From: a virus
Taxonomy: Duplodnaviria; Heunggongvirae; Uroviricota; Caudoviricetes
Length of the DNA: 64,000 nt
Virus record (IMG/VR): IMGVR_UViG_3300043464_001836
Location: 32,002-96,001 of that record
Direction: 5' to 3' (one strand)
The position numbers were made by a program, and so were the translations under genes. Position 1 is the stretch's first letter, and every line of letters starts with the position of its first letter. The notes beneath the pieces are model-generated. The model did not search any database and had not been told where the DNA came from. It saw nothing but the letters and a program-made list of their open reading frames with translations. Positions 33,105-58,714 of this stretch are shown piece by piece.

Positions 33105-33740
33105 CTATTTATCATCGTTCCACATTAAGAATAGAGCGTTACAAATTACGTGCGCTAGGTGCGATTTCTGCGATTCGGGGTCTTCTTTCTCCCCAGACAC
33201 ATATGATACAATGTGTCTAAGAATAGCCTTCTCATAGCGGTCACGTTCTACTTTCTGCCAATTATCTCTAGAGTACTTAGTAGCTCCGAACTCTAGTACT
33301 TCTACTACTGGTTCTAGCTGCTTCCAAGGAATTAAAGTCCAATCTAGCTTACCGGAGTCGTGCTTTACTCCTTTTTTCACACTAGCCAACTTAGTTAAAA
33401 CCGTATCATCTAGCACAGGTAACGTATTGTCTATAGTAGGTAAGCTACTAATATCGTCTGGCAATTCATAATTTGCTTTTGGAGTATTAGTGACTGCTTG
33501 TACACTAGATGGAATCCTGCCTGTAATAATTCCTGGGTAGGGGTTTGTAATAGTTAAAGGTGAAATTTTAGTAGTAAACGAAGATTTTGCTACTGTTGAC
33601 TCTACTAATTCCTTAAAGTTACTGCCATTAGTACAGGTAGAACATACTGTACTAGCACTAGTAAACAAGTAACAATACTCGCAACCACGATTTTTAGGCT
33701 GCTGCATACAAGCTCCTTTCATCAAAATGAATATTCTCAA
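33105..33740 (-). CDS. hypothetical protein with an N-terminal Cys cluster and a C-terminal nucleotide-pyrophosphohydrolase-like (MazG/DUF550-like) segment
   Basis: CEYCY...CSTC zinc-ribbon-like N-terminus. C-terminal LEFGATKYSRDNWQK...SHLAHVICNALFLMW resembles phage NTP-PPase domains (weak). Confidence 0.35.
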   Translation of the reverse strand: MRIFILMKGACMQQPKNRGCEYCYLFTSASTVCSTCTNGSNFKELVESTVAKSSFTTKISPLTITNPYPGIITGRIPSSVQAVTNTPKANYELPDDISSLPTIDNTLPVLDDTVLTKLASVKKGVKHDSGKLDWTLIPWKQLEPVVEVLEFGATKYSRDNWQKVERDRYEKAILRHIVSYVSGEKEDPESQKSHLAHVICNALFLMWNDDK

Positions 33741-34443
33741 AACCGTAACCCCTAGGATTACAAATAAACTTAGTTCCTAGGTACTCTTCACAGTAGCTAT
33801 CATGAGTATGACCAAATAGCCAAATTTTAGGTACCCTGTAGATTACATCTAGTAGCTCTGCTGCATTAGAACTAAACATGCAGTTCTCCACTATATGCTT
33901 ATACTTAGGGTGGGTAAACTTACGACTAGGAACAAAGTGAGTTACTAGGATATCAAAGTCATTACTAGAAATCCAATCCATTGTATCTCTATATTCTTGC
34001 ATCCAGGAGTCAGTAGTCATACATTTAATATAACGTATGTCGTTTGTATAATCCTTTCCTAGAATAACTGAAACAGGGTTACCTTCATCCATGCTAGACC
34101 ATAGAGTAGCTCCCCCAATTCTTACACCTTCAATGTCTACCCACTCTTTCTCAAGAATATATACATTCTCGTTTACTAGCATGTCTAGACTTTCAGACGC
34201 TACACGCCAATCATGGAAACCCCAATAGTCATGGTTTCCTAGAACAGCTACTACATGCTTGAATCGCTTGGACATTTCATTTAGCCAGTCGGCAGTATTA
34301 ATAATACTACGGCCTGTCCAAATATCCCCAGCAACGATTAGAGTAGTTTCGGAGTCTTCATCTAGACGCTTTGGGGTCCATAATGGTTTTCGATTAGCAT
34401 AGTCAAAGTCTAGATGTAAATCACTAAATATACGATATTTCAT
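33694..34443 (-). CDS. Metallophosphoesterase (calcineurin-like)
   Basis: Motifs DLHLD, GDIW and GNHD. Confidence 0.7.
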   Translation of the reverse strand: MKYRIFSDLHLDFDYANRKPLWTPKRLDEDSETTLIVAGDIWTGRSIINTADWLNEMSKRFKHVVAVLGNHDYWGFHDWRVASESLDMLVNENVYILEKEWVDIEGVRIGGATLWSSMDEGNPVSVILGKDYTNDIRYIKCMTTDSWMQEYRDTMDWISSNDFDILVTHFVPSRKFTHPKYKHIVENCMFSSNAAELLDVIYRVPKIWLFGHTHDSYCEEYLGTKFICNPRGYGFENIHFDERSLYAAA

Positions 34444-35099: not shown

Positions 35100-36068
35100 A
35101 TGGCATTTATCAAATTCCCCAAAATCGGGCAGTTCCGCGATGTTATTACCCACGTGCGCAAGCAGGCCCAGTTCGTTGGCATTGACGCCGAAGGTAATGT
35201 TATCGTAGACCGTACTCGCAAGGCTCCCACTCTCAAATTCAAAGGTACTGTGAAATTGCATGGTACCAACGCTGCTGTTGTGCGTAATGCTGATGGCACT
35301 ATCCACTTCCAATCTCGTGAACGTATTATCACTCCTACTAGTGATAACGCCGGTTTTGCTATTTGGGCTTCTACTGTTGACTGGAACTTCTTCTTCTTCT
35401 CACTATTCAATCCTGATAGCGAGGTAGCTATCTTCGGTGAATGGTGTGGTGGCAATATCCAGCAAGGTATTGCTCTTAACCAGCTAACCAAGCGCTTTGT
35501 TATCTTCAAAGTTATGGTTGATGGTGTTTGGCAGAAGTTCACCCTAGATGTTGCTCAAGACTTTGGCATCTACAACATCAACAGCTTCCCTAGCTTTGAA
35601 GCTGAGATCGACTTCGAAAATCCGGGTGTTGTTCAAAATATCCTTATTGCTATTACTGAGCAGGTTGAGGCTGAATGTCCTGTAGGTAAAGCTTTCGGTG
35701 TTACTGGTATTGGTGAAGGTGTTGTATGGACTTGCGAGAGTGATCCTACTCTAGTCTTTAAGGTTAAGGGTGAAAAGCACTCTGCATCCAAGGTTAAGGT
35801 CTTGGCTAGTGTAGACACCGAGAAGGCTGCTTCTTTGCAGGAATTCGTTGAAAACTCTGTAACTGAAAACCGCCTCAACCAGGGCCTAGAAAATATTGAT
35901 GAACTAGACGTTAAGTGCACTGGTCAGTTCTTGAAGTGGGTAGTTAATGACGTTCTAGTTGAGGAAGCAGATGTTATCGTTGCTTCTCTGCTAGAAACCA
36001 AAGAAGTTAATCGTGAAGTATCTAAAGCTGCTAAAGTCTGGTTCATGGAGAAACTGAAAAATGCATGA
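35100..36068 (+). CDS. RNA ligase, Rnl2-like nucleotidyltransferase
   Basis: Motif I KLHGTNA (compare T4 Rnl2 KIHGTN), motif III IFGEWCGG, motif IV GEGVVW, motif V LVFKVKGEKH. Confidence 0.6.
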   Translation: MAFIKFPKIGQFRDVITHVRKQAQFVGIDAEGNVIVDRTRKAPTLKFKGTVKLHGTNAAVVRNADGTIHFQSRERIITPTSDNAGFAIWASTVDWNFFFFSLFNPDSEVAIFGEWCGGNIQQGIALNQLTKRFVIFKVMVDGVWQKFTLDVAQDFGIYNINSFPSFEAEIDFENPGVVQNILIAITEQVEAECPVGKAFGVTGIGEGVVWTCESDPTLVFKVKGEKHSASKVKVLASVDTEKAASLQEFVENSVTENRLNQGLENIDELDVKCTGQFLKWVVNDVLVEEADVIVASLLETKEVNREVSKAAKVWFMEKLKNA

Positions 36069-38681: not shown

Positions 38682-39422
38682 ATGGTTGAAGATAATGTAG
38701 TTGAAGAGATTTATGCCGTGTTGGTTGAGCAGTTTGGGGTCGACAACCTATTTTTACCTAAGAGGGGTAAAAAGAGACCTAGAACCATTACTTGGAAAGA
38801 CTTTATCAAAGCTACACTAGAAGAAGAGGAATTATATAAGTATTGTGGATACGCTAATACTGGCTCCTTCAGCTCTGGTATAAAGAGAGCACACCCTAGT
38901 ATAGTAAAGGAAAAAGGTAGTAGGCCTTGGTTTCACTTCCTTCTATATTTGGCTGGATATAAGCGCTGTCCAGAGTGTAACAACGTACTAATGGTTACTA
39001 ATTTTAGTTATACTAGTACGCATAAGGATGGCTTGCATACAGAGTGCAAAGAATGCGCAAGAGAATGTGCAAGAGAGTACTATAAGAAAAATAAAGGGTC
39101 TATCTTAGAGAAAGCAAGGGAGTACCAACAAGCTAATAAAGAGCAGTATATGGAGCAGCATAAAAAATACTACCTAAACAATAAGCATATATTTGCAGCA
39201 TATAATGCTAAACGCCGAGCTACTAAGCTACAGGCTTCCCCACTATGGGCAGACCAGGAAAAGATAAAACAGATATACGCAACACGACCAGAAGGTTATC
39301 ACGTAGACCATATAATTCCATTACAACATCCACTAGTATGTGGCCTTCATTGTGAATTTAACTTACAGCACCTACCGGCAGCTGAAAACCTTACTAAGCA
39401 CAATAGGTTTGATTTAGATTAA
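38682..39422 (+). CDS. HNH homing endonuclease (family 1 paralog)
   Basis: Shared N-terminal EEIYAxLVEQFGV...LPKRGKKRPRTITW module and C-terminal HNH module. Confidence 0.8.
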   Translation: MVEDNVVEEIYAVLVEQFGVDNLFLPKRGKKRPRTITWKDFIKATLEEEELYKYCGYANTGSFSSGIKRAHPSIVKEKGSRPWFHFLLYLAGYKRCPECNNVLMVTNFSYTSTHKDGLHTECKECARECAREYYKKNKGSILEKAREYQQANKEQYMEQHKKYYLNNKHIFAAYNAKRRATKLQASPLWADQEKIKQIYATRPEGYHVDHIIPLQHPLVCGLHCEFNLQHLPAAENLTKHNRFDLD

Positions 39423-39451: not shown

Positions 39452-40141
39452 ATGGCCAAGCCCCAGAAGCAAAAAGTTAGTCCGTATAAACAAAAAGATA
39501 ACCTAGGACTAAGGTCAATAAAGCCTTTGACCTATGCACAGCAGCAGATGTTCACTTCATACCTAGAGTATGATATGAACCTAATTTGCTCTGGAAGTGC
39601 TGGTACAGGCAAGTCGTTCCTCGGTACGTATCTTGGTCTGCGGTCTCTATTCTCAAACGAAGTAGATAAGATTATCTTTGTTAGGTCTACTGTTAGTGTG
39701 CGCGATATTGGCTTCCTCCCTGGTACACCTGAGGATAAGGCTAAGCCTTATTTTGCAATCTATGCTGACGCTGTTAATTTCCTATGTGACTCTGGAACTG
39801 CATGGGAGAGCTTACTGCACAGAGGGTCTATTCTACTAGAGCCTACATCTTTTGTGCGCGGAGCAACTTGGCGTAATGCTGTAGTTATTTTGGACGAGTA
39901 TCAGAATATGAGTAGGCAAGAGTTATACTCGGTTATGACTAGACTAGGAGATAATTCTAGGCTAATTATTCTAGGAGATCATAAACAAACTGACCTAGTT
40001 AAGGGTTCTAGTCACGAGTACCTTATGCACCTGGCCGATAAGCTATCTGAAGATTTTGATACTATTAAGTTCACACATCAGGATATTGTCAGGTCACCAC
40101 TAGTTAAGTCCATTATCATCGCAGATTCAGAGATACTCTGA
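39452..40141 (+). CDS. phoH: PhoH-like ATPase
   Basis: Walker A GSAGTGKSF, followed by FLPGTPEDKAKPY and ILDEYQNMSRQELYSVMTRLGDNSRLIILGDHKQTDL. Confidence 0.7.
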   Translation: MAKPQKQKVSPYKQKDNLGLRSIKPLTYAQQQMFTSYLEYDMNLICSGSAGTGKSFLGTYLGLRSLFSNEVDKIIFVRSTVSVRDIGFLPGTPEDKAKPYFAIYADAVNFLCDSGTAWESLLHRGSILLEPTSFVRGATWRNAVVILDEYQNMSRQELYSVMTRLGDNSRLIILGDHKQTDLVKGSSHEYLMHLADKLSEDFDTIKFTHQDIVRSPLVKSIIIADSEIL

Positions 40142-40147: not shown

Positions 40148-40180
40148 CGCCCACAAGATTTCGCGCTTGTGGGTTTTTGC
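40148..40180 (+). terminator. Rho-independent terminator
   Basis: CGCCCACAAG-ATTTCGCG-CTTGTGGGTTTTTGC. Confidence 0.6.
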
Positions 40181-40226
40181 TTTTAGAGGTACAATATTAT
40201 TTCTGAGATTGGGAAAGGAAAGAAAG

Positions 40227-40427
40227 ATGAATGATATCATGATTAAGCTGATGCGTCAAGCTGATGCTGTACTTGCAGAGCACCTAGGGAATGAAGAAAT
40301 CTCCCTAGAAGAATTTGAGGCACTCAATAACGCACTGTGGTCTGGTGTGTACACTGAGGACGAACTTCGCAGCTTCCTCATCCCTAACGACAACAACTCT
40401 TGTTTCTGGAAGTGGGCCGATGATTGA
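40227..40427 (+). CDS. hypothetical protein
   Basis: Preceded by a plus-strand copy of the class-A cassette TACAATATTATTTCTGAG plus an AGGAAAGG ribosome-binding leader. Confidence 0.35.
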   Translation: MNDIMIKLMRQADAVLAEHLGNEEISLEEFEALNNALWSGVYTEDELRSFLIPNDNNSCFWKWADD

Positions 40428-40568
40428 AGTATCTAGTAAGTTTATTGAACGTACACAATATTTTCTTGGCAAGAATCGCCTTCATGTTTATTATTCTATG
40501 AGCCAAGGTAAGTATATCCTTAGTGACGCACATACTTACTATTTTTGGCGTAAAATTGGAGCAATGTA

Positions 40569-40883
40569 ATGACGTACAAATTGTTTATTGATGATGAGCG
40601 GTACCCACCTAATGATGGGGGTACTTGGGTTATCAGTCGTACCTCTCAAGAGGCTATTGCTGCTGTACTTTCTCTAGGTATGCCAGCCTTTATCTCCTTT
40701 GACCATGACTTGGGTGGTGAGGATACGTCTATGGTTTTCGTTAATTGGCTTATTGACTATATGCTTGATAATCACAAAGACCAGTTTGACTTCTACGTCC
40801 ACTCTCAAAATCCTGTTGGAAAGGTTAATATTGAGAAGAGACTGCTAGGTCTCTTTACTTACTTGGAGCAATGTAATGATTAA
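40569..40883 (+). CDS. hypothetical small protein with a receiver(REC)-like signature (FIDDER...DHDLGG)
   Basis: KLFIDDERYP ... ISFDHDLGG pattern reminiscent of CheY-like/phage REC-like domains. ATGA overlaps on both sides. Confidence 0.35.
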   Translation: MTYKLFIDDERYPPNDGGTWVISRTSQEAIAAVLSLGMPAFISFDHDLGGEDTSMVFVNWLIDYMLDNHKDQFDFYVHSQNPVGKVNIEKRLLGLFTYLEQCND

Positions 40884-41676
40884 AATTTATGCAGTACAAG
40901 GTGGTGAAATTCCTTACGAACAGTTTATCTTCCCTGGTGGTGAGGTGTCTATTCGACTAGATATTTCTGCTATGCAGTACGTTAAGCAGTTCACTATTAG
41001 TGCTAATCTTCAGTCACCGACTGAAATAGTTAATCTAGTAATGATTAAAGATGCGATTCAGCGACAAGTACCAGAAGCCCTAATCGAGCTTTACATGCCT
41101 TACGTTCCTTATGCTCGCCAAGACCGAGTATCCGTTCCTGGTGAAGCACTCTCTATTAGGGCTTTCGCTGCTATTATCAACTCGATGCACTTCTTCAAAG
41201 TAACTGCTATGGATGTACACAGCCAGGTTACTGAAGATTCTATCGACCGTCTAGAAGTAATCCCTCAGTGGCATCTAGTAGGCCAATTCATTGACGGGCG
41301 TTCTGACTACGTACTAGTAGCGCCAGATAAAGGTGCTGTAGAAAAGACAGCTGCATGTGCTAGAGCACTAGACCTAGAGTATATTACTGCTAGTAAAGTG
41401 CGCGACCCAGTAACTGGTAAAATTACAGGTACTGAGGTTAACTTCGGTAATGTTAACCTAAAAGGTAAGCGCCTACTAATTGTGGATGATATCTGTGACG
41501 GGGGGGGTACCTTTACTGAGCTAGCTAAGGCCATTAGAGCTAAGGTTGATAATCCTATTGACCTGTATGTGACTCACGGAATTTTCTCTAAGGGCCTCAA
41601 TGAGCTTTATAGCCTGTTCGAGACGATTTACTGTGCTAACCCTTGGTTTGAGGATGAAAGGATTACTACTCTATGA
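40876..41676 (+). CDS. Ribose-phosphate pyrophosphokinase (Prs)-like enzyme; could instead be an ADPR-pyrophosphate synthetase (Adps)
   Basis: PRPP/PRTase-type motif LLIVDDICDGGGTF and the Prs-like fold order. Confidence 0.65.
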   Translation: MIKIYAVQGGEIPYEQFIFPGGEVSIRLDISAMQYVKQFTISANLQSPTEIVNLVMIKDAIQRQVPEALIELYMPYVPYARQDRVSVPGEALSIRAFAAIINSMHFFKVTAMDVHSQVTEDSIDRLEVIPQWHLVGQFIDGRSDYVLVAPDKGAVEKTAACARALDLEYITASKVRDPVTGKITGTEVNFGNVNLKGKRLLIVDDICDGGGTFTELAKAIRAKVDNPIDLYVTHGIFSKGLNELYSLFETIYCANPWFEDERITTL

Positions 41677-42236
41677 GCCACTATAAAGGGAGGGATCCAT
41701 TTGATCCTAAATGTGCTTGTGGTAGCAATAAGTTCTCTGATGAGTGTACTTGCAACATCTCCACAACTCAAGGTAGAAGTATGATTCACTACGAACAAGG
41801 CGATGTATTCGCCAGCCTGCCAAAGGCCTGTATCTTTGTACACGGCTGTAATGCACAACGTACTATGGGTTCTGGAGTAGCTAAGGTTATTAAAGACCGC
41901 TATCCAGAAGTTTACTATGGCTACCTAACTATGGTAATGAACCTAGGTATGGTCTCTATAGTCAAGTTAGAAGAGCAGGTATTTTGTAACGCTATCACAC
42001 AGCAGTACTATGGTAGAGATCCTAATCGCTGCTACGTTGACTATAGAGCAGTAGAGGATGCACTAGCAAAGGTAGCTACTATTGCTAGAACTCTAGAACT
42101 TCCGGTTTACATGCCCTTCATTGGTGGTGGTCTAGGTGGTGGAGATAGGCTAGTATTAAGCCAAATCTTCGAGAGCGTCTTCTGGGAAGTTGAGGTGCAT
42201 ATTTTTTCACTTGAATCTGCACCAATTTCCGCGTAA
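41673..42236 (+). CDS. Macro-domain (ADP-ribose-binding/processing) protein with an N-terminal Cys-rich zinc ribbon
   Basis: VHGCNAQRTMGSGVAKVI (macro NAAN-GGGV-like block) and PFIGGGLGGG (macro Gly-rich loop). N-terminal CACGSNKFSDECTC. Confidence 0.5.
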   Translation: MSHYKGRDPFDPKCACGSNKFSDECTCNISTTQGRSMIHYEQGDVFASLPKACIFVHGCNAQRTMGSGVAKVIKDRYPEVYYGYLTMVMNLGMVSIVKLEEQVFCNAITQQYYGRDPNRCYVDYRAVEDALAKVATIARTLELPVYMPFIGGGLGGGDRLVLSQIFESVFWEVEVHIFSLESAPISA

Positions 42237-42271
42237 AATATCTTTTCTGAAATGAATTAAGGACTAAAACT

Positions 42272-43753
42272 ATGAATCCCGCAACTAACACTGACTTCTA
42301 CAAAACTGGTCACATCTTTCAGTACCCCGAAGGCACTGAAAAGGTCTACTCTAACTGGACTGCTCGTTCGGCCAAGAACTTCAAGGACTTCCAAGGTCAA
42401 TTCGACGACAAGGTAGTCTTCTTCGGCCTTCAAGCGGCTTTGATTAAACTACAGAAAGAATGGGAAGAAAAGTTCTTCTCTCTGCCTGTAGACGTAGCTG
42501 TAGCTAAGTACAATCGCCGTATGCGTACTAGCATTGGCCCTATTGATACTAAGCACATTGAAGCGCTTTGGAACCTTGGCTTTCTACCTATCAAGGTTAA
42601 GGCCCTTCCCGAAGGTTCTCGTGTTAACCTACGTGTACCTATGTTTACTGTAGTTAACACCCACTCTGAATTCGGTTGGCTCACTAACTACCTAGAGACC
42701 TACCTCTCTTCTGAAGTTTGGAAGACCTGTACCAACGCAACTATCGCCTTTGAGTATCGTAAGCTGTTTGACAAGTATGCGCAGATTACTGGTACGCCTC
42801 GCGAGTTTGTCCAGTTTCAGGGTCACGACTTCTCAATGCGTGGTATGGATGGAACTGAGTCAGCAGGACGTTCTGGAGCTGCTCACCTTCTTTCCTTCGT
42901 AGGAACGGATACTATTCCTGCAATTGACTTCCTTGAGGATTTCTACTTCGCTAATGCTGAGCAGGAACTTATTGGAACCTCTGTTCCAGCTACAGAGCAC
43001 TCAACTATGTCAGCGGGTGGAGAAGTTGATGAGGCTGCTACCTTCAAGCGTCTTATTACTGAAGTGTACCCTTCTGGTATTATTAGTATCGTATCCGATA
43101 CTTGGGACCTGTGGGGAGTGCTAACTGTTATTGCACCTTCTCTAAAGGAAGAAATCCTTAACCGCGGCCGTGATGCCTTCGGCATGTCCAAGGTAGTGTT
43201 TCGCCCTGACTCCGGGGATCCTGTTAAAATCATTGTAGGTGACTGTAGTGCTGAACCTGGTACTCCTGAGTTCAAAGGTGCTGTTCAACTACTGTGGGAA
43301 AACTTTGGTGGAACCTTTACTGATAATGGCTTCAAGCAAGTAAATGAGCACGTTGGTCTTATCTATGGTGACTCTATTACTCCTGCTCGTGCTAGGGCAA
43401 TCCTAGAAGGTCTAGCTAACAAGGGCTTTGCTAGTGGTAACATTGTGTTTGGTATTGGTTCTTACACGTACCAAATGAACACTCGTGATACCTTTGGCTT
43501 TGCTATGAAGGCTACCTACGCTGTAGTTAATGGTGTTGGCCGAGAACTCTTCAAGAACCCTAAAACTGACTCTGGTATGAAGAAGTCTGCTAAGGGTCTG
43601 CTTCGTGTTGAACTAGAAGATGGTGAGTTTGTTCTATACGATCAGCAAACTGAACTAGAAGAGACATTAGGAGTACTTGAAACTGTATTCCTTAACGGTA
43701 AGCTAGTTAAGCAAACCAGCCTTGCAGAAGTTCGTAAGAATCTGCTAGGCTAA
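42272..43753 (+). CDS. nadV: Nicotinamide phosphoribosyltransferase (Nampt/NadV)-family enzyme; could be the Namat variant
   Basis: 493 aa, Nampt-family length and conserved blocks (FQGHDFSMRGMDG, GIISIVSDTWD, GLIYGDSIT). Confidence 0.75.
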   Translation: MNPATNTDFYKTGHIFQYPEGTEKVYSNWTARSAKNFKDFQGQFDDKVVFFGLQAALIKLQKEWEEKFFSLPVDVAVAKYNRRMRTSIGPIDTKHIEALWNLGFLPIKVKALPEGSRVNLRVPMFTVVNTHSEFGWLTNYLETYLSSEVWKTCTNATIAFEYRKLFDKYAQITGTPREFVQFQGHDFSMRGMDGTESAGRSGAAHLLSFVGTDTIPAIDFLEDFYFANAEQELIGTSVPATEHSTMSAGGEVDEAATFKRLITEVYPSGIISIVSDTWDLWGVLTVIAPSLKEEILNRGRDAFGMSKVVFRPDSGDPVKIIVGDCSAEPGTPEFKGAVQLLWENFGGTFTDNGFKQVNEHVGLIYGDSITPARARAILEGLANKGFASGNIVFGIGSYTYQMNTRDTFGFAMKATYAVVNGVGRELFKNPKTDSGMKKSAKGLLRVELEDGEFVLYDQQTELEETLGVLETVFLNGKLVKQTSLAEVRKNLLG

Positions 43754-43826
43754 GAACTGAACAGTTCGGCCCCACTAAGAGCTTAAGCTTTGAAGCTCTT
43801 AAGCTCTTAAGCTCTTAAGCTTTGAA

Positions 43827-43940
43827 GTTTGAAGTTTTGAAGTTTGAAGTTTGAAGTTTGAAGTTTGAAGTTTGAAGTTTGAAGTTTGAAGTTTGAAGTT
43901 TGAAGTTTGAAGTTTGAAGTTTGAAGTTTGAAGTTTGAAG
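43827..43940. repeat. Tandem 7-bp repeat (GTTTGAA)n, about 16 copies
   Basis: Uninterrupted GAAGTTT phase. Preceded by (GCTCTTAA)3 and followed by TTTGGGGTC. Confidence 0.8.
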
Positions 43941-43987
43941 TTTGGGGTCGAACAGTTCCTCAAATTCTTTTATAATTATTTCTTTAA

Positions 43988-46352: not shown

Positions 46353-47102
46353 ATGATTGAAGAAGAAATTTATAACCTTTTAGTCGAGCGGTTTGGGGTT
46401 AGCGAAGTCTTTTTACCAAAGAGAGGTAAAAAGAGACCTAGAACCATTACTTGGCTAGAATTTATTAAAGTAGTTCTACAGGTAGAACCAATGGCCCTAC
46501 CAAAGTTTTGTGGGTATTCTAATAGCAACTTTGGTACTGGTGTAAAAACATTGCATAGTGCTATAGTAAAGGAAAAAGGTAAAAGACAGTGGGCTCACTA
46601 CTTTCTAGCTTTGGTTGGCTATAAGAGATGTAGTGAATGTAAGATAATATTACCTGTAAAAACCTTTAACCGGAATACCCATAATACAGATGGCTTGCGA
46701 CCTAGCTGTAAAAATTGTGACGCCACTTATCGTAAGTCTAATAGGGCTAGTAAAAATGCGCTACAGGTTGTCTATTATAAGGCAAATAAAGAGCGTTATA
46801 GAGTTCTTAACAAAAAGTGGCGAGAATCTAATAAAGACCGTATTAAAGAGTACTGTGAAAAGAATAGACATATATTTGCAGCATATGCTGCAAAACGCAG
46901 AGCAATTAAGCTACAAGCAACCCCCAATTGGGCAAACCTCATAACTATAAAACAAATTTATGAAACGTGCCCTGATGGCTATCACGTAGACCATATAGTT
47001 CCTTTACAGAATCCTTTAGTATGTGGCCTTCATTGTGAGTTCAACCTTCAACATCTACCTGCCCTAGAAAACCTAACTAAGAGTAATAAATTTGAAATAT
47101 AG
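46353..47102 (+). CDS. HNH homing endonuclease (family 1 paralog)
   Basis: Shared N- and C-terminal modules. Conserved structured leader 46278..46352. Confidence 0.8.
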   Translation: MIEEEIYNLLVERFGVSEVFLPKRGKKRPRTITWLEFIKVVLQVEPMALPKFCGYSNSNFGTGVKTLHSAIVKEKGKRQWAHYFLALVGYKRCSECKIILPVKTFNRNTHNTDGLRPSCKNCDATYRKSNRASKNALQVVYYKANKERYRVLNKKWRESNKDRIKEYCEKNRHIFAAYAAKRRAIKLQATPNWANLITIKQIYETCPDGYHVDHIVPLQNPLVCGLHCEFNLQHLPALENLTKSNKFEI

Positions 47103-49998: not shown

Positions 49999-50295
49999 AT
50001 GGAGAACGAAATGGAATTCCTTAAACTACTTATTAAAGACTTGAAAGATACTTTCACTGGTAACTCTCCCAAAGTACCTGAAAAAACTTATGCTGAAATG
50101 GTTAGGGAGATTCATGTTCAACGGTTCTGTGAAGGTTTGCTACTCAGCATTGAATACGATAAGTCTGGTGATATGCAGCGTGATGTTCGTATTGAGGATG
50201 CATCTTTACGAGAGCGGACAATTAATTTTCTAAATGAAAAGGGTTTTATTGTCAAAGTATTTCATGCTTCTAAAACTATTCAAGTTAAATGGTGA
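49999..50295 (+). CDS. hypothetical protein
   Basis: Same promoter/ATGGAGAACG leader as the Cys-motif family. Confidence 0.35.
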   Translation: MENEMEFLKLLIKDLKDTFTGNSPKVPEKTYAEMVREIHVQRFCEGLLLSIEYDKSGDMQRDVRIEDASLRERTINFLNEKGFIVKVFHASKTIQVKW

Positions 50296-50675
50296 AACCA
50301 ATGCTATATTTAATTCGCGGTGTGCCCGGTTCTGGTAAGTCTACAAAGGCTAGAGAACTACTAGAACAAGGGCTAGCTACTGTTCATCTAGAAGCTGATA
50401 TGTATTTTGAAGATGAAGAAGGTAACTATAAGTTTGAGCCTACTAAGATTGGTAGAGCACATAGCTGGTGTTTGTACCTTACTAGAAAGCACTTAGAAGA
50501 AGGGCACAACGTAGTTGTCTCTAATACCTTTATTAAGCGTTGGGAACTAGCTAAGTATGTTGCACTAGGATTTCCTTATGAGATCATTGAGTGTAAAGGT
50601 AGCTACGAGAGTGTACACGGTGTTCCGGCTGAAGTTGTTGCTAGAATGAAAGCTAACTATCAAGAGCTTGAGTAA
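50289..50675 (+). CDS. Polynucleotide 5-prime-kinase, kinase domain only (T4 Pnk N-domain-like)
   Basis: P-loop GVPGSGKSTKARE aligns with the T4 Pnk GCPGSGKSTWARE block. Pnk-like residues follow downstream. 128 aa, no phosphatase domain. Confidence 0.55.
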   Translation: MVKPMLYLIRGVPGSGKSTKARELLEQGLATVHLEADMYFEDEEGNYKFEPTKIGRAHSWCLYLTRKHLEEGHNVVVSNTFIKRWELAKYVALGFPYEIIECKGSYESVHGVPAEVVARMKANYQELE

Positions 50676-51636: not shown

Positions 51637-52416
51637 ATGAAGCCACTAGTAATGAAGAAAGAACATAACGGATTGACCATGCTTAAGTACTCTAAGCGAG
51701 TGTTCTGGGACAATCTATGGAACGATGAATTAATTGAGTGTCGTGGGCGGGTTGTTGACTCTGAAGGTAACGTAGTAGTAAACCCGTTCACCAAGGTTTT
51801 CAACTATCTAGAAAATGATACCAAAGTTCCACTAGACGAAGTTGTACTAGCAGTTGAAAAGATTAACGGTTTTATGGCAGCTCTTACGTGGCATGACGAA
51901 GCGTGGCTAGTAACGACTACTGGTTCTTTCGACTCTAAGTACGTTGAAATTGCTAAGCGTTACATTGGAGATTCTGGGCTACCTGAGCTAAATGGTGTTA
52001 CTTATTTGTTTGAGATTGTAGCGCCGGAAGATCCTCATATTATTCCTGAGCTAGAAGGAGCTTATCTACTAGGATACCGTACCGCTGGTTCACTAGTATA
52101 CACCTCTTATCTAGAAAAGGAAAAGAAGCTAGACTCACTAGCACGACAGTTTGGATATAAGCGTCCTAAGTACTTTCAGGCTACGTTTGGTGAGGTACTA
52201 GAGTTATCTAAGAAAGTTAGGCATGAGGGTTTTTGCATCTATGGTTCTGTTAACTTCAAGCTAAAGTCACCTTGGTATCTACAGTCTAAAGCTATTGCAC
52301 GCTCTAACCGTCGTCTAGCTCTTGACGAAGAGTTCTCTCAAATGCTCCTAGAAATGCCTAAGGTCTTGGGTGAGCAAGAGCGACTAGAGTTCATTCGTAA
52401 CTACTTTAAGGTCTAG
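51637..52416 (+). CDS. RNA ligase, Rnl1 family (T4 RnlA-like), short form
   Basis: LIECRGRVVDSEGNVV...NPFTKVFNYLEN aligns with T4 Rnl1 ALECRGIMFEMDGEKPV...NPFT. Motif I region AVEKINGFMAAL aligns with T4 LTKEDGSLVS. Confidence 0.55.
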   Translation: MKPLVMKKEHNGLTMLKYSKRVFWDNLWNDELIECRGRVVDSEGNVVVNPFTKVFNYLENDTKVPLDEVVLAVEKINGFMAALTWHDEAWLVTTTGSFDSKYVEIAKRYIGDSGLPELNGVTYLFEIVAPEDPHIIPELEGAYLLGYRTAGSLVYTSYLEKEKKLDSLARQFGYKRPKYFQATFGEVLELSKKVRHEGFCIYGSVNFKLKSPWYLQSKAIARSNRRLALDEEFSQMLLEMPKVLGEQERLEFIRNYFKV

Positions 52417-54664: not shown

Positions 54665-54750
54665 CGTGTTGAATTTAGCGCAAAACTTACGACTTATAAC
54701 TTATAACTTATAACTTACAAGTCGTAAGCTGCTGGGTTTTTCCCCCAAAC
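54665..54750 (+). ncRNA. candidate small RNA: long hairpin (CTTACGACTT...AAGTCGTAAG) followed by a T-run
   Basis: Transcript predicted from the promoter at 54629. Ten-bp stem with a 23-nt (TAACTTA)n loop, then GGTTTTTCCCCC. Confidence 0.35.
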
Positions 54751-54858
54751 CGCAGAAACTGCTCAACCCCAGAATCTTGACCCTAAACTGGAGAACTTGC
54801 TGAGGTGTGGGTGTTGCATAGGTCACTACAGTTTGGGGTCAGGCACAGTAATTTGCGG

Positions 54859-54888
54859 TTGATTTTATACTATACGGAGATGTATAAT
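54859..54888 (+). promoter_or_regulatory. Near-consensus sigma70 promoter (TTGATT, 18-nt spacer, TATAAT)
   Basis: TTGATTttatactatacggagatgTATAAT. Confidence 0.55.
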
Positions 54889-54894
54889 GGGCGC

Positions 54895-54978
54895 CGAGTG
54901 GAATTTAACGCAAAACTTACGACTTATAAGTTATGAGTTACAACTTATAAGTCGTAAGTTTTGCGTTTTTACCCCAAA
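54895..54978 (+). ncRNA. candidate small RNA, paralog of 54665..54750
   Basis: Same hairpin (CTTACGACTTATAAG...CTTATAAGTCGTAAG) and T-run. Confidence 0.35.
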
Positions 54979-54999
54979 CCGCAGAAACTGCAGAAACTT

Positions 55000-55428
55000 C
55001 TAGGATTTAGTAAGGTCCTTTAATTCCAGTAGTAGATAGTTAATATTACCTACCGCTTTAGCATGATCCTTTTCAATAATAACTGGATCTTGAAGTATTT
55101 TAACAAAGAACTTTATTAGTGCTATTACTTCCTCCATAGTACTTCTAGGGAATAAAAAGTTCCACATATCCTGTTCTTCCGGAGTTGTTAAAGTACTTAA
55201 AACATCTACTTGCAGTATCTTAGGCCCCTCTTCTGAGTCTTCCATAGTAAGAGGTTCGCCACTTAGATACTTCTTATATAAATCACTATCTTTAAAGAAG
55301 GGCTTAGTTTTAGCTTTAACGTAGTACTTTAGTGTACTCTCCGGGATACCTATAGTTTGCGCAATATCTCCCCAAGTGTACCCTTGTTCCCTAGCTAGAG
55401 ATACAAGCTGCTTAATTTTATCATCCAT
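55000..55428 (-). CDS. HTH DNA-binding protein
   Basis: N-terminal HTH YTWGDIAQTIGIPESTLKYYVK. Confidence 0.45.
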   Translation of the reverse strand: MDDKIKQLVSLAREQGYTWGDIAQTIGIPESTLKYYVKAKTKPFFKDSDLYKKYLSGEPLTMEDSEEGPKILQVDVLSTLTTPEEQDMWNFLFPRSTMEEVIALIKFFVKILQDPVIIEKDHAKAVGNINYLLLELKDLTKS

Positions 55429-55657
55429 TTCTTAATTCTCCTATTACTACACTTTTCTATAAACTTACAACTTATGACTCATAACTTACAACTTATAACT
55501 TATAACTTACAAGTCGTAAGTTAATATTTTACCCCAAACCGCTAACCTGTTCAACCTCAGATTTTTACCCTAAACCGCGGAAATTAGGTTAGTCGCTACA
55601 GTTTGGGGTTGCGGGGGACTGCTACAGTTAGTTCAGTTTGGGGTCAGGAATCTGGCC

Positions 55658-55687
55658 TTGATTTTACATGATGTGGAGAAGTATAAT
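55658..55687 (+). promoter_or_regulatory. Near-consensus sigma70 promoter (TTGATT, 18-nt spacer, TATAAT) reading into the GGCGC-repeat and 9-mer array region
   Basis: TTGATTttacatgatgtggagaagTATAAT. Confidence 0.55.
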
Positions 55688-55900
55688 TGGCGCAGACTAG
55701 TACTAGAAACGAATTTTGAGGTTGACTCGGTTTCGTACTGGCGGGCGCAGAGATAATACTGATGTTGTTTCGATTTTGCACTAGGGCGCGTAGATAATTT
55801 TGCGCTTGTTTCACTTTTTCACTGGGGCGCGTGGCAAGCTTAAAATTGTTTCGTCGATTTACTACTCAGGCGCGGCGAAGCCGCGCTGGCCCGGAGGGCC

Positions 55901-56086
55901 AAACGTCAAAAACGTCAAAAACGTCAAAAACGTCAAAAACGTCAAAAACGTCAAAAACGTCAAAAACGTCAAAAACGTCAAAAACGTCAAAAACGTCAAA
56001 AACGTCAAAAACGTCAAAAACGCCAAAAACGTCAAAAACGCCAAAAACGTCAAAAACATCAAAAACATCAAAAACATCAAAAACAT
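55901..56086. repeat. Tandem 9-bp repeat (CAAAAACGT)n, about 20 copies, degenerating into CAAAAACAT x4
   Basis: Read directly from the sequence. The ORFs overlapping this stretch are repeat-translation artefacts. Confidence 0.85.
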
Positions 56087-56877
56087 GGATGCGAATGATT
56101 CTCACTAACTTCCTGGAAAACAACAAATCCACATTGTCTCACGCCGGCGGTAGGCTTGTCAATAACTCTAGAGGGTTATTTACAAAAAACTTTTTTCGTG
56201 GTAGCCATAAGAAAAACTTATAGCCATATAAAAAAATTTCATAGGCCGGCCTGGTGGATAGTATTTTTCTAGTGCTGTCAAATAAAATTTTTCTATAGCA
56301 AAAAACGCTTGTAAGTCTTTGATTCTAAAGAGAAATCCTAGAATCGACGTTCTCCTGCTGGCCTACACCCTGCTATCAATAAAGGGGAAAACGCCTCAAA
56401 ACGCCTCAAAACGCCTATAAACGGCAGTTGCGAAAAAACCACACTTTTTTGCAGGAAATTTGACCGTTAGCGTTTTTCGTGCTAGTGAAAAACCGCGCTT
56501 GACTACCTGCCAAATATCGTGCTATTCGTGCATGAAAAAATAATTGTTGCGCTTGGCTGATTATTGTGTTATCGCGTACACGTCTAAAGACTAAAAAGAG
56601 GCCGGAAAGAAAAAAGCCTTTAAAATCAAAGACTTAAAATTATTTTGAAATATCTTCAAAATTTTTTGAAAAACGCTTTACAGGGTCAGTCATAGTCTGG
56701 ATAATTCATCACATCGAAACAGCAACAGCAGCAAGGCAAGGCAAGGCAAGGCCTCCGGGCCATGCTGGCCAGGCCCTCGCTCTTTAAAAATTTGGAAAAA
56801 TCGGCTTTCTCCGGCGAGAGTATCAAATAGATGCCGCTTTAATAGGCGGCATTATTGGATAATTTTGTCCGAATTAA

Positions 56878-57087
56878 TTGGAGTTTATCATGATTGAAGT
56901 AATGGTTAATGGTAAATGGTTTGCAGTTCGTCAATCTTGCGGGATTTACCAGAAAATGATCTACGTAGAGTCTGGACACGGCATTTATTCCGGTTTTGAT
57001 GAACTGTCCAATATTCAAGGTTGGAAATTGGATGGGGAAATATCCAATTATGCTACCTGTAAGCAATTGCTCAAATTTACACGGTAA
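56878..57087 (+). CDS. hypothetical protein (GC-richer island)
   Basis: ORF whose codon usage differs from the rest of the window. Confidence 0.35.
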   Translation: MEFIMIEVMVNGKWFAVRQSCGIYQKMIYVESGHGIYSGFDELSNIQGWKLDGEISNYATCKQLLKFTR

Positions 57088-57186
57088 GAACTAATCAGGC
57101 ATTAACGCTTAATAATTAGGCGTTAATACCGGGCTATTTCAAAAAACCCGATTTCCCGTTTTTCAATTTTTTTTGGAGTAAATAGC

Positions 57187-57606
57187 ATGGCCGAAAGCAA
57201 AAAAACCCCGACGTGGACGCCGGAACAGACTGTTTCTCTTGTGGCCGCATGGGATGCGGTTAACCGGGACAATAAGCGTATCGACGAAGTAGCGGCAAAG
57301 ATGGGCCGTAGTGCCGCGTCCTGCCGCATGAAGCTTGTTCGGGAAGGCTTGTATCAAAAAGCGGAAAATCTGACAAAAACGGGGGAAAGCGTAATTTCCC
57401 GCGAGGAATTGGCTGATTCTATCGCCGCCTATCTGCCCGCCACCGTTTCTGATGACGTTAGCAGCCTCGCCAAGACGAATAAGCGAATTCTCAAAGCAAT
57501 CAAAAAATTGCTGGATGAAAACGCTCAATTCCGGAAAGCGGCAATGGAATCTTTCGAGACTGACGCGGAAACCGTGGAAACGGAAAACCCGGAATTGGCT
57601 GATTAA
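57187..57606 (+). CDS. hypothetical protein (island)
   Basis: ORF followed by a terminator. Confidence 0.4.
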   Translation: MAESKKTPTWTPEQTVSLVAAWDAVNRDNKRIDEVAAKMGRSAASCRMKLVREGLYQKAENLTKTGESVISREELADSIAAYLPATVSDDVSSLAKTNKRILKAIKKLLDENAQFRKAAMESFETDAETVETENPELAD

Positions 57607-57613
57607 TTAATCC

Positions 57614-57640
57614 ACGCCGGGGCAATTCCCGGCGTTTTAG
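57614..57640 (+). terminator. Rho-independent terminator
   Basis: CGCCGGGGCAATTCCCGGCGTTTT. Confidence 0.6.
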
Positions 57641-58701: not shown

Positions 58702-58714
58702 GACAGGAACCACC

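What the first reader, a model, noticed from the sequence alone, without database searches (positions are those of the whole stretch)
40569..43753. Compact NAD+ salvage/reconstitution cluster (REC-like protein, Prs-like enzyme, macro domain, Nampt-like enzyme): candidate counter-defence module with an extra macro-domain component
Four translationally coupled plus-strand genes lie downstream of phoH. They are a small REC-like protein (FIDDER...DHDLGG), a Prs-family phosphoribosyl-pyrophosphokinase (LLIVDDICDGGG), a macro-domain protein with a zinc ribbon, and a 493-aa Nampt-family enzyme. Phage Prs-like plus Nampt-like pairs are known to rebuild NAD+ after depletion by NAD-degrading immunity (Thoeris, DSR, SIR2, SEFIR). 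In the NARP1 pathway the pair acts on ADP-ribose (Adps plus Namat) rather than ribose-5-phosphate. A macro domain binds or processes ADP-ribose derivatives. Its insertion between the two enzymes suggests an accessory step that feeds ADP-ribose-derived products into the pathway, for example deacylation, dephosphorylation or removal of ADP-ribose from a modified target. That three-part arrangement is not the canonical two-gene NARP1 or NARP2. The class-B promoter cassette sits immediately upstream of the Nampt-like gene (42234..42255).
Basis: partly seen in the sequence, partly recalled or inferred. Interest (0 to 1): 0.85.

Follow-up and report, generated by a model that had tools for sequence, protein, structure and literature searches.

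The report
Known phage NAD-rebuilding operon plus cREC
This is a T5-like phage's copy of NARP1-AP, a recently described three-enzyme counter-defence operon that rebuilds NAD+ from what NAD-destroying bacterial immunity leaves behind; it is ordinary except for an uncharacterised receiver-like (cREC) gene inserted directly in front of it.

Summary
The four genes are present at the stated coordinates and their families are confirmed. They are cREC (Pfam PF20274), a Prs-like Adps, a Poa1p/TARG1-class macro domain, and a Namat.

Gene order Adps > macro > Namat matches the NARP1-AP operon of Vibrio phage Gary (Osterman et al., bioRxiv, January 2026). In that operon the macro protein (Adpp) dephosphorylates ADPR-1''-phosphate, the product of aRES defence, so that Adps and Namat can rebuild NAD+. 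The four residues whose mutation inactivates the Gary operon are all conserved here, and so are the published Adps and Namat signature motifs.

Two details fail:
- The 'zinc ribbon' is a 36-codon extension that varies between strains and is predicted to be disordered.
- Namat is not translationally coupled. It has its own promoter.

The only unusual element is cREC. It overlaps Adps and is bracketed by a perfect 17-nt direct repeat, which suggests a cassette insertion. cREC was absent from 80 other NARP1 loci and adjacent to NARP1 in 1 of 80 other cREC loci. Elsewhere it mostly sits with RNA-repair genes. Whether it feeds the pathway is open.

Interest is low to moderate.

The parts
40149..40174 (+). 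Terminator-like hairpin that closes the phoH unit
   Evidence: 9-bp stem followed by a T run. It sits between the phoH stop at 40141 and the next promoter.
40167..40209 (+). Promoter P1 of the operon: -35 TTGTGG, 17-nt spacer, -10 TACAAT, then the conserved initial transcribed motif ATATTATTTCTGAGAT
   Evidence: Exact match to the 18-copy promoter family. Followed by an RBS and the ATG at 40227. Promoter function is inferred, not shown.
40227..40427 (+). Small ORF of 66 aa, function unknown, first gene of the unit
   Evidence: ORF. No Pfam or PHROG hit. Called as a gene in related contigs. Not an aRad1 homologue.
40420..40569 (+). Small ORF of 49 aa, function unknown. Its start overlaps the previous stop (ATGATTGA) and its stop overlaps the cREC start (TAATG).
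   Evidence: Called as a gene in L006. No Pfam hit.
40556..40572 (+). Left copy of the perfect 17-nt direct repeat TTGGAGCAATGTAATGA (Shine-Dalgarno plus ATG junction)
   Evidence: two copies in 64 kb against 0.01 expected. Conserved in L003-L006.
40569..40883 (+). cREC protein, 104 aa: a truncated receiver-fold domain and predicted phosphoesterase, experimentally uncharacterised
40863..40879 (+). Right copy of the 17-nt direct repeat, at the cREC/Adps junction
   Evidence: The 307-nt spacing equals the distance from the cREC ATG to the Adps ATG.
40876..41676 (+). Adps (ADP-ribose diphosphokinase, PRPS-like), 266 aa
   Evidence: phrog_619 at 2.6e-81. 34% identity to Gary Adps, E 8e-38, with K174 aligned to Gary K192. 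DDICD motif as in the Adps structure paper. About 50 aa shorter than bacterial PRPS chains in the PDB.
41673..41780 (+). Strain-variable 108-bp (36-codon) N-terminal extension of the macro ORF. This is the supposed 'zinc ribbon'.
   Evidence: Absent from the 97-99% identical contigs L003 and L005. Bounded by TATGA repeats. pLDDT about 53. No homologue found anywhere.
41781..42236 (+). Adpp core (macro domain, predicted ADPR-1''-phosphate phosphatase), 151 aa
   Evidence: 28-33% identity to NARP1-associated macro proteins of Table S1. H57 and N60 are invariant and correspond to Gary H24 and N27. Foldseek matches to TARG1, Poa1p and DarG.
42211..42253 (+). Internal promoter P2 for Namat: -35 TTGAAT, 17-nt spacer, -10 TAAAAT, then ATATCTTTTCTGAAAT. 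The -35 lies inside the macro coding sequence.
   Evidence: The exact 16-mer is shared with six other sites in the window. Function is inferred.
42272..43753 (+). Namat (nicotinamide ADP-ribose transferase, Nampt-like), 493 aa
   Evidence: PDB 9W5X/9W5W (SPbetaL1 Namat) at E 4e-156 and 523 bits, against about 220 bits for true Nampt. Selectivity-clamp motif GSYTYQMNTRD. H243 aligns with Gary H243.

Best explanation
The cluster is a NARP1-AP operon: NAD+ reconstitution pathway 1 with an associated phosphatase. It is carried by a previously unsampled T5-like phage.

When host immunity destroys NAD+, the canonical NADases leave ADP-ribose and nicotinamide, while aRES (RES-domain) defence leaves ADPR-1''-phosphate and nicotinamide. 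The proposed sequence of steps is:
1. The macro protein Adpp removes the 1''-phosphate to give ADPR.
2. Adps transfers pyrophosphate from ATP to ADPR to give ADPR-PP.
3. Namat joins ADPR-PP to nicotinamide to give NAD+.

This restores the cofactor the phage needs, for example for its own NAD-dependent DNA ligase.

The unit is transcribed from a phage early-type promoter at about 40190. That transcript carries two small ORFs, cREC, Adps and Adpp. A second promoter of the same type sits inside the 3' end of the macro gene and drives Namat.

Shown here: gene identities, order, homology, conserved catalytic residues and folds. Inferred from the published Gary, SPbetaL1 and Bas63 work: the chemistry and the anti-defence role.

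The cREC gene was probably inserted into the operon as a cassette. Its contribution is not established.
For: Gene order and coupling:
- Adps > macro > Namat, with an overlapping Adps/macro junction as in Vibrio phage Gary. The Gary operon was shown to need all three genes to beat aRES, and purified Gary Adpp converts ADPR-1P to ADPR.

Homology to the Gary proteins:
- Adps 34% identity, E 8e-38.
- Namat 39% identity, E 5e-106.
- Adpp 26% identity, E 5e-7, and 28-33% to seven other Table S1 Adpp proteins.

The four residues mutated in the paper's inactive Gary constructs are conserved: Adpp H24/N27 correspond to H57/N60, Adps K192 to K174, Namat H243 to H243.

Namat:
- It matches the solved SPbetaL1 Namat far better than any Nampt, 523 against about 220 bits.
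- It carries the Namat-specific motif GSxPhixPhixPhiTRD as GSYTYQMNTRD.

Adps:
- It carries DDICD, matching D212-D213-I214-C215-D216 of the Adps structure.
- It is short, like other Adps proteins that lack the PRPS C-terminal module.

Macro fold: the Poa1p/TARG1/DarG class.

Frequencies in 80 other viral NARP1 loci: Adps adjacent in 78 and macro present in 10, three of them in the same order. This agrees with the published 15%.

Phage background: T5-like (terminase 50% identical to Vibrio T5-like phages), as is Gary. The phage encodes an NAD-dependent DNA ligase.
Against: - No biochemistry or phage genetics exists for these particular proteins.
- Identity to the characterised Adpp is only 26-33%, and the Pfam Macro model itself scores below threshold (E 0.051).
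- Macro domains of this clade are catalytically versatile. TARG1 and DarG are glycohydrolases, and the NCBIfam DarG model gives a weak hit (E 9e-5).
- Position 7 of the Namat clamp motif is Met rather than the aromatic residue reported to stack on adenine.
- The host is unknown, so I cannot say whether it carries aRES.
- Published NARP1-AP has three genes. Here cREC and two small ORFs are co-transcribed, so the unit may do more than the published pathway.
Confidence: 0.85

Rival explanations
1. Extended four-enzyme pathway. cREC is a functional first step of the operon. As a phosphoesterase it would convert a further phosphorylated ADPR derivative into a substrate for Adpp or Adps. Candidates are ADPR-1'',2''-cyclic phosphate, opened to ADPR-1''P, or 2'-phospho-ADPR derived from NADP+. 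That would widen the range of NAD(P)+ breakdown products the phage can recycle.
For: - cREC overlaps Adps by 8 nt and shares its promoter.
- A second, unrelated viral contig (L028) also has cREC > Adps > Namat directly adjacent.
- Of 80 cREC loci, 6 have both Adps and Namat within 6 kb, and 2 more have one of the two. By my rough estimate about 0.4 would be expected if placement were random.
- In Klebsiella phage K64-1, cREC sits in a cluster of Nampt, cytidyltransferase, SIR2 and Nudix genes.
- Aravind and colleagues predicted from gene context that cREC resolves cyclic phosphates, including ADPr>P (PMC7824862, PMC9503650).
- In yeast, a cyclic phosphodiesterase followed by the macro phosphatase Poa1p is the route from Appr>p to ADPR. 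Poa1p's role is stated; the Cpd1 step is from my own knowledge.
- The invariant Asp, His and Thr residues of cREC cluster at the strand ends where receiver domains carry their phospho-acceptor site.
Against: - cREC was absent from all 80 other NARP1 loci, even with an HMM search.
- Most of the cREC loci that have NARP1 nearby come from contigs of one size class (106-188 kb), so they may be a single lineage.
- The closest cREC relatives (61-65% identity) have no NARP1 nearby.
- Many cREC genes sit with RNA ligase, PNKP-HAD, CCA-adding enzyme or tRNA genes.
- The 17-nt flanking repeat suggests a recent insertion that need not be functional.
- Tight overlaps are common in phage genomes regardless of function.
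- No defence system I know of produces ADPr>P.
- cREC has never been assayed.
Confidence: 0.2
2. cREC is only a neighbour. It belongs functionally to the phage's RNA-repair kit, healing 2',3'-cyclic phosphate RNA or tRNA ends for the phage RNA ligases. It landed next to NARP1-AP because RNA-repair and NAD cassettes lie side by side in these phages.
For: - In Proteus phage Mydo, cREC lies inside a Sir2 / kinase / cREC / RNA ligase / phosphoesterase cassette, 4 kb from NARP1 and on the opposite strand.
- In Gary, an RNA ligase, an ATPase and a phosphoesterase lie just upstream of NARP1-AP.
- L028 has an Rnl1-like ligase 2 kb upstream of cREC.
- Other cREC loci carry Rnl1 (3 loci) and PNKP-HAD (3 loci). 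In phage EGole cREC sits among tRNA genes, a tmRNA, RNase H and an RNA ligase. In AS-zj it sits beside a CCA-adding enzyme.
- The window encodes homologues of the Mydo kinase (50289-50675), RNA ligase (51637-52416) and phosphoesterase (12374-12946), plus an Rnl2-type ligase (35100-36068).
Against: - In the window cREC is about 10 kb from the kinase and Rnl1 genes and 4.5 kb from the Rnl2-type ligase.
- It is translationally coupled to Adps.
- The recurrent closeness of cREC to NAD genes in several lineages goes beyond what RNA repair alone predicts.
Confidence: 0.45
3. The macro protein is a de-ADP-ribosylating glycohydrolase of the TARG1 or DarG type. It would remove ADP-ribose from modified DNA, RNA or protein, for example to counter a DarT-like or other ART-based defence. 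The released ADPR would feed NARP1 only incidentally.
For: - The best structural matches include TARG1 and DarG macro domains.
- NCBIfam DarG gives a weak hit, E 9e-5, 21.9 bits against a cut-off of 250.
- The family profile hits SCO6735 and DarG more strongly than Poa1p.
Against: - The protein encoded in the same position of the Gary operon is a demonstrated ADPR-1''P phosphatase, and it is needed specifically against aRES.
- The H and N residues required in Gary Adpp are invariant here.
- The DarG score is far below its cut-off.
- No toxin or ART partner lies nearby.
Confidence: 0.1
4. Ordinary salvage. The Prs-like enzyme makes PRPP and the Nampt-like enzyme makes NMN, as in NARP2-type or auxiliary metabolic genes, and the macro and cREC genes are unrelated to NAD+.
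For: - Public annotation calls the two enzymes ribose-phosphate pyrophosphokinase and nicotinamide phosphoribosyltransferase.
- TIGR01251 just passes its cut-off.
- Namat retains some Nam-PRPP activity in vitro, according to a section heading of the Namat paper.
Against: - Namat-specific clamp motif and much stronger similarity to the solved Namat than to Nampt.
- Adps-type DDICD loop and a short C-terminus.
- No NMN adenylyltransferase or Nudix homologue was found in the window by tblastn with the K64-1 genes.
- The Adps plus Namat pairing occurs in 78 of 80 loci.
Confidence: 0.04

Closest known systems
NARP1-AP of Vibrio phage Gary (Adps, Adpp, Namat; Osterman et al., bioRxiv 10.64898/2026.01.28.702374)
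   Same: - The same three enzyme families in the same order, with overlapping Adps/macro genes.
- A T5-like phage background.
- Conserved catalytic residues.
- RNA-ligase genes in the wider neighbourhood.
   Different: - Sequence identities are only 26-39%.
- The window adds a cREC gene and two small ORFs upstream in the same transcription unit.
- Namat has its own internal promoter.
- This strain has a 36-aa extension on Adpp.
- Gary has no cREC immediately upstream: the two ORFs just before its Adps have no Pfam hit.
Canonical two-gene NARP1 (Bas63, SPbetaL1; Osterman et al. 2024; structures 9W5X/9W5W and the 2026 Adps structures)
   Same: - An Adps plus Namat core.
- The Namat selectivity-clamp motif.
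- The Adps DDICD loop and catalytic Lys.
   Different: - Canonical NARP1 has no phosphatase and cannot use ADPR-1''P, so it fails against aRES.
- The window's Namat has Met at clamp position 7.
Yeast tRNA-splicing by-product pathway (cyclic phosphodiesterase Cpd1, then macro phosphatase Poa1p)
   Same: - The macro protein belongs to the Poa1p structural class, and Poa1p converts ADPR-1''P to ADPR.
- A predicted cyclic-phosphate esterase (cREC) next to a Poa1p-like macro protein mirrors the two-step Appr>p to ADPR route. The Cpd1 step is from my own knowledge.
   Different: - cREC is unrelated in fold to the 2H-family Cpd1 and is untested.
- No Tpt1/KptA or Sir2 source of Appr>p was found in the 64-kb window (Sir2 queries only).
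- In the phage the output goes on to NAD+ resynthesis.
cREC (PF20274) family as defined by Iyer, Burroughs, Aravind and colleagues (PMC7824862, PMC9503650)
   Same: - Stand-alone protein of about 100 aa with a receiver fold, conserved Asp residues, found in phages, and never associated with histidine kinases.
- Linked to NAD/ADPr-processing and RNA-repair genes.
   Different: - The published contexts stress Nudix fusions, sirtuin and RNA-ligase cassettes.
- Direct coupling to an Adps/Adpp/Namat operon is not described in the passages I read, and it is rare in my samples (0 of 80 and 1 of 80).
NARP2 (Nampt plus bifunctional NMNAT/Nudix, phage KVP40) and NARP3 (PnuC plus NadR, Bas30)
   Same: The same purpose: restoring NAD+ during NAD-depleting defence.
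   Different: - Different enzymes and substrates (PRPP/NMN, or imported nicotinamide riboside).
- No homologue of the K64-1 cytidyltransferase (NMNAT-like) or Nudix was found in the window. I did not search for NadR or PnuC.

Membership tests
NARP1-AP | Adps: a PRPS-like enzyme with the catalytic Lys on the beta-hairpin, the DDICD-type PP loop and no PRPS C-terminal regulatory module | tested here: met
   K174 aligns with Gary K192, whose K192A mutant is inactive. DDICDGGG occupies aa 203-210, matching D212-D216 of the Adps structure. The protein is 266 aa against 284-335 aa for PRPS chains. phrog_619 scores 2.6e-81.
NARP1-AP | Namat: a Nampt-like enzyme with the catalytic His and the ADPR-PP selectivity-clamp motif GSxPhixPhixPhiTRD | tested here: met
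   GSYTYQMNTRD is present and H243 is conserved. It scores 523 bits against SPbetaL1 Namat (9W5X) and about 220 bits against Nampt. One deviation: Met instead of an aromatic residue at motif position 7.
NARP1-AP | Adpp: a Poa1p-like macro domain with the His and Asn that are required in Gary Adpp | tested here: met
   H57 and N60 are invariant across the Table S1 Adpp proteins and 38 homologues. Foldseek matches to Poa1p, TARG1 and DarG at E 1e-10 to 1e-12. The Pfam Macro model alone is sub-threshold.
NARP1-AP | The macro gene lies within two genes of an adjacent Adps/Namat pair (the paper's detection rule) | tested here: met
   The macro gene lies between Adps and Namat. The rule is quoted.
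NARP1-AP | Enzymatic conversion of ADPR-1''P to ADPR to ADPR-PP to NAD+, and rescue of phage on aRES hosts | not testable with these tools
   Requires purified proteins analysed by LC-MS, and plaque assays.
cREC (PF20274) | Profile match above the curated threshold | tested here: met
   77.5 bits against a cut-off of 27, covering profile positions 1-86 of 88.
cREC (PF20274) | Receiver-like fold with conserved acidic residues at the phospho-acceptor site | tested here: met
cREC (PF20274) | Phosphoesterase activity on cyclic phosphates | not testable with these tools
   This is a prediction only. The 2022 survey states that cREC remains experimentally uncharacterised.
   The Cys pattern is CxC-x8-CxC, not a CxxC pair. 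pLDDT is about 53 with no secondary structure. The segment is missing from near-identical strains and from all 120 listed homologues. The apparent extension of the Hena1 match is a frame artefact.
NARP2 | Nampt acting on PRPP together with an NMN adenylyltransferase (NMNAT/Nudix) gene | tested here: not met
   The enzyme is of the Namat type. No homologue of the K64-1 cytidyltransferase or Nudix was found in the window. Only 64 kb of the roughly 114-kb genome was examined.
DarG-type antitoxin macro domain | Equivalog-level match and a partner DarT toxin | tested here: not met
   NF048014 scores 21.9 bits against a cut-off of 250. There is no ART gene in the neighbourhood.

The most novel reading that the evidence does not exclude
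cREC is a genuine fourth enzyme of the operon, making this an 'NARP1-AP plus cyclic-phosphate or phospho-ADPR esterase' pathway. cREC would open ADPR-1'',2''-cyclic phosphate, or remove another phosphate such as the 2'-phosphate of the NADP+-derived product. Adpp would remove the 1''-phosphate, and Adps and Namat would rebuild NAD+.

That would give the first biochemical function for the cREC family. It would also imply that some bacterial defence or RNA-damage route produces a cyclic or otherwise phosphorylated ADPR product that phages need to recycle.
Probability: 0.2. Interest if true: 0.6.

Novelty: new member of a known kind. Interest (0 to 1): 0.3.

Why it matters
As a NARP1-AP operon it mainly extends a known counter-defence system to a new, uncultured T5-like phage lineage. 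It suggests that the host population uses NAD+-depleting immunity, probably including RES-type NAD+ phosphorolysis.

The follow-up value lies in cREC. It is a widespread phage domain, reported in up to 18% of jumbo phages, with a strong in-silico prediction and no experimental data. Here it is coupled to three enzymes whose substrates are now known. That narrows the list of candidate cREC substrates to a handful of phosphorylated ADP-ribose derivatives and gives a ready genetic test: the operon with and without cREC.

The flanking 17-nt repeat and the 108-bp indel also show how accessory genes and segments are swapped in and out of such operons between near-identical strains.

Tried and rejected
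- Near-identical DNA in 50,697 phage records: no match. The phage is not in the INPHARED set. Identical proteins do exist in NCBI, JGI and Logan metagenome data on a 114-kb contig.
- Zinc ribbon on the macro protein: rejected.
- The tblastn match to Erwinia phage Hena1 that seemed to cover the extension runs upstream of the annotated macro start, into the preceding gene in another frame. It is an artefact.
- The 108-bp segment as a repeat or mobile element: no other copy in the window or in any fetched locus.
- Small ORFs as aRad1 (aRES inhibitor) homologues: an HMM built from the seven published aRad1 proteins finds nothing in the six-frame window (best E 0.44).
- A natural cREC-less variant: an exact scan of metagenome contigs for the predicted small49/Adps junction found nothing.
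- cREC as a regular NARP1 accessory gene: rejected as a general rule. It was present in 0 of 80 NARP1 loci by tblastn and by HMM.
- Sir2, NMNAT and Nudix homologues as partners in the window: none found with Mydo and K64-1 queries. KptA/Tpt1 was not searched because I had no query sequence.
- Pfam on the macro ORF alone is sub-threshold. Profile and structure searches were needed to confirm the family.

Full report
**What is there**

The window's right half is transcribed on the plus strand. After phoH (39452-40141) comes a terminator-like hairpin (40149-40174) and then a compact run of six ORFs:
- a 66-aa ORF (40227-40427)
- a 49-aa ORF (40420-40569)
- cREC (40569-40883)
- a Prs-like gene (40876-41676)
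- a macro-domain gene (41673-42236)
- after a 35-nt spacer, a Nampt-like gene (42272-43753)

The first five overlap one another at their start and stop codons. The sixth does not.

A 16-nt motif, ATATYWTTTCTGARAT, occurs 18 times in the window against 0.54 expected, always on the coding strand. Aligned with flanks, it is the start of the transcribed region of a complete sigma-70-like promoter: an A/T-rich upstream stretch, TTGnnn, a 17-nt spacer, then TAnAAT. An RBS and an ATG follow. One copy precedes the 66-aa ORF (40194). One lies in the macro-Namat spacer (42238), with its -35 inside the macro gene. Its promoter function is inferred.

**Identities**

*Prs-like protein.* It matches phrog_619 (2.6e-81).

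*Nampt-like protein.* It matches phrog_448 (5e-194).

*Macro protein.* Pfam's Macro model gives only a weak hit (E 0.051). Stronger evidence comes from elsewhere:
- phrog_335 'phosphatase' at 8.8e-34.
- A profile of its homologues hits solved macro domains at 7e-24 to 1e-9.
- Its model (core pLDDT >90) superposes on TARG1, Poa1p, SCO6735 and DarG (Foldseek E 1e-10 to 1e-12).

**What it is**

A literature search found the January 2026 preprint by Osterman et al. (10.64898/2026.01.28.702374). Its main points are:
- RES-domain defence proteins (aRES) cleave NAD+ to nicotinamide and ADPR-1''-phosphate, which the two-gene NARP1 pathway cannot use.
- 15% of NARP1 operons carry a macro gene.
- The Adps-phosphatase-Namat operon of Vibrio phage Gary overcomes aRES, and all three genes are required.
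- Purified Gary macro protein (Adpp) converts ADPR-1P to ADPR.
- The pathway is named NARP1-AP.

I fetched the Gary locus. It is a T5-like phage with the same order and an overlapping Adps/Adpp junction. The window proteins align with the Gary proteins as follows:
- Adps 34% identity, E 8e-38
- Namat 39% identity, E 5e-106
- Adpp 26% identity, E 5e-7, and 28-33% to seven further NARP1-associated macro proteins from the paper's Table S1

The paper's strain table names the inactivating mutations: Adpp H24A and N27A, Adps K192A and Namat H243A. All four residues are conserved in the window: H57 and N60 (invariant), K174 and H243.

Two further membership tests come from 2026 structural papers.
- Namat is distinguished from Nampt by a 'selectivity clamp' motif, GSxPhixPhixPhiTRD (PMC12774641). 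The window has GSYTYQMNTRD. It scores 523 bits against the solved SPbetaL1 Namat (9W5X/9W5W) and about 220 bits against true Nampts. The only deviation is Met at motif position 7.
- Adps has D212-D213-I214-C215-D216 at its PP loop, a catalytic Lys on a beta-hairpin, and lacks the C-terminal PRPS module (PMC13586617). The window has DDICD and K174, and is 266 aa long.

I conclude with high confidence that the Prs-like, macro and Nampt-like genes form a NARP1-AP operon.

**Phage background**

The terminase is about 50% identical to those of Vibrio T5-like phages. An exact copy of the cREC protein lies on a 114-kb contig. The window also carries a primase, a DnaB-type helicase and an NAD-dependent DNA ligase. 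That ligase gives the phage a direct need for NAD+.

**How common is each part**

Among the 80 viral contigs whose Namat is most similar to the window's:
- 78 have Adps adjacent.
- 10 have a macro gene within 5 kb, three of them in the order Adps > macro > Namat.
- None has cREC, by tblastn or by an HMM built from diverse cREC proteins.

Among 80 viral contigs with a cREC gene:
- Six have both Adps and Namat within 6 kb, and two more have one of the two.
- Only L028 has cREC directly before Adps > Namat.
- Most of the rest come from contigs of one size class, 106-188 kb, so they may be a single lineage.

The closest cREC relatives (61-65% identity) sit among unrelated early genes. Elsewhere cREC keeps company with the following:
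- RNA ligases and PNKP-type phosphatases
- tRNA genes, a tmRNA and RNase H (Streptomyces phage EGole)
- a CCA-adding enzyme (Aeromonas phage AS-zj)
- a Sir2 / kinase / RNA ligase / phosphoesterase cassette that lies 4 kb from NARP1 in Proteus phage Mydo
- a Nampt / cytidyltransferase / SIR2 / Nudix cluster in Klebsiella phage K64-1

This matches the published in-silico view. There cREC is predicted to resolve cyclic phosphates at RNA ends or in ADPr>P and is 'experimentally uncharacterized' (PMC7824862, PMC9503650).

**A new detail about cREC**

The cREC ORF is bracketed by a perfect 17-nt direct repeat, TTGGAGCAATGTAATGA, at 40556-40572 and 40863-40879. The repeat contains the Shine-Dalgarno sequence and the ATG of cREC and of Adps respectively (0.01 matches expected by chance). 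It is conserved in four near-identical metagenome contigs. It is the only local repeat of this length in the window that is not a promoter, a paralogous segment or a tandem array.

This looks like the footprint of a cassette insertion, or a site for precise loss, between the 49-aa ORF and Adps. I searched metagenome contigs for the predicted cREC-less junction and found none.

**The 'zinc ribbon'**

The first 36 codons of the macro ORF (41673-41780) are missing from contigs that are otherwise 97-99% identical. In those contigs the macro gene starts at MIHYEQ with the same ATGA overlap on Adps. The segment is bounded by TATGA repeats. It has no homologue in any fetched sequence. It is not covered by any of the 120 best homologues. 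It is modelled without structure (pLDDT about 53). It is a strain-specific in-frame extension, not a conserved zinc-binding module.

**Mechanism, and what is shown versus inferred**

Shown here: gene content, order, coupling, promoter-like elements, folds, motif and residue conservation, and frequencies of association.

Inferred from published experiments on homologues:
1. Adpp removes the 1''-phosphate of ADPR-1''P.
2. Adps pyrophosphorylates ADPR using ATP.
3. Namat condenses ADPR-PP with nicotinamide to give NAD+.
4. The operon counters both canonical NADase systems and aRES.

Open question: the role of cREC. I put about 0.45 on cREC being an RNA-end-healing enzyme that is merely adjacent. 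I put about 0.2 on it feeding a phosphorylated or cyclic ADPR derivative into the pathway. The remainder is unknown. The roles of the two small ORFs are also unknown, and they are not aRad1 homologues.

**Verdict**

I class the finding as a new member of a known kind, with interest about 0.3. The residual value is the rare, repeat-flanked coupling of an uncharacterised cREC gene to enzymes whose substrates are known. That makes cREC's function directly testable.

Noticed in passing
window 40556-40572 and 40863-40879: A perfect 17-nt direct repeat, TTGGAGCAATGTAATGA, contains the ribosome-binding site and the ATG. It brackets exactly the cREC ORF and is conserved in four near-identical contigs. 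It looks like the footprint of a gene-cassette insertion.
   Followed up: partly
window 41673-41780: A 108-bp in-frame indel, bounded by TATGA, separates this strain from 97-99% identical metagenome contigs. It adds 36 Cys-rich residues to the macro protein. An 18-nt stretch at its left edge (41663-41680) is 89% identical to 40488-40505, inside the 49-aa ORF.
   Followed up: partly
window 43782-43944: Tandem repeats lie immediately 3' of the Namat stop: (CTTAAGCTTTGAAGCT) x3.9, running into (TTTGAAG) x17.6. No terminator-like site was found there.
   Followed up: no
window 54684-58837: A region rich in other tandem arrays: (AAACGTCAA) x20 at 55901-56084, (GGCCTGGGGT) x12 at 58715-58837, and AACTTAT-type arrays at 54684-54720 and 55462-55512. 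Long ORFs are few between about 54.4 and 56.9 kb.
   Followed up: no
window 11179-52052 (18 sites): A family of 18 near-identical early-type promoters with a conserved upstream A/T tract, -35, -10 and first 16 transcribed bases. They come in two sub-types, ATATTATTTCTGAG.. and ATATCTTTTCTGAA... All those left of about 34.8 kb are on the minus strand and all those to the right are on the plus strand, which marks a divergent transcription switch near 34.8-35.1 kb.
   Followed up: partly
window 38682-39422 and 46353-47102: Two paralogous HNH/endonuclease VII-like genes of 246 and 249 aa with similar N- and C-termini. The contig L003 aligns to the window up to 45355 and again from 47325, so the stretch holding the second copy and the thyX 3' end is replaced or absent there. 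That suggests a mobile homing endonuclease next to thyX.
   Followed up: partly
window 7018-8812 (minus strand): The NAD-dependent DNA ligase is split into two adjacent ORFs: adenylation plus OB domains at 7835-8812, and HhH plus BRCT at 7018-7782. From memory, phage T5 has the same split. It gives the phage a direct NAD+ requirement.
   Followed up: no
window 33105-34443 (minus strand): A MazZ-like dATP/dGTP diphosphohydrolase domain (PF18909, 4e-30) at 33105-33722 overlaps a calcineurin-like phosphoesterase at 33694-34443. In other phages MazZ-type enzymes accompany modified-base (2-aminoadenine) genomes. I did not look for PurZ.
   Followed up: no
window 12374-12946, 35100-36068, 50289-50675, 51637-52416: A dispersed RNA-repair kit: a metallophosphoesterase, an Rnl2-type ligase, an AAA_33 kinase and an Rnl1-type ligase. 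Three of them are homologous (35-38% identity) to the Mydo cassette that contains cREC.
   Followed up: partly
L173 (Proteus phage Mydo) 6649-6966: A 105-aa winged-helix protein with weak hits to DUF6945 and to Pfam 'wHTH-PRTase associated' sits directly upstream of Adps in Mydo. It may be a regulator of NARP1 in Vequintavirinae.
   Followed up: no
window 22990-24430 (minus strand): A duplicated segment, shown by many 17-mers repeated at a spacing of 1076 nt and including promoter copies, indicates tandem paralogous genes around 23.0-24.4 kb.
   Followed up: no
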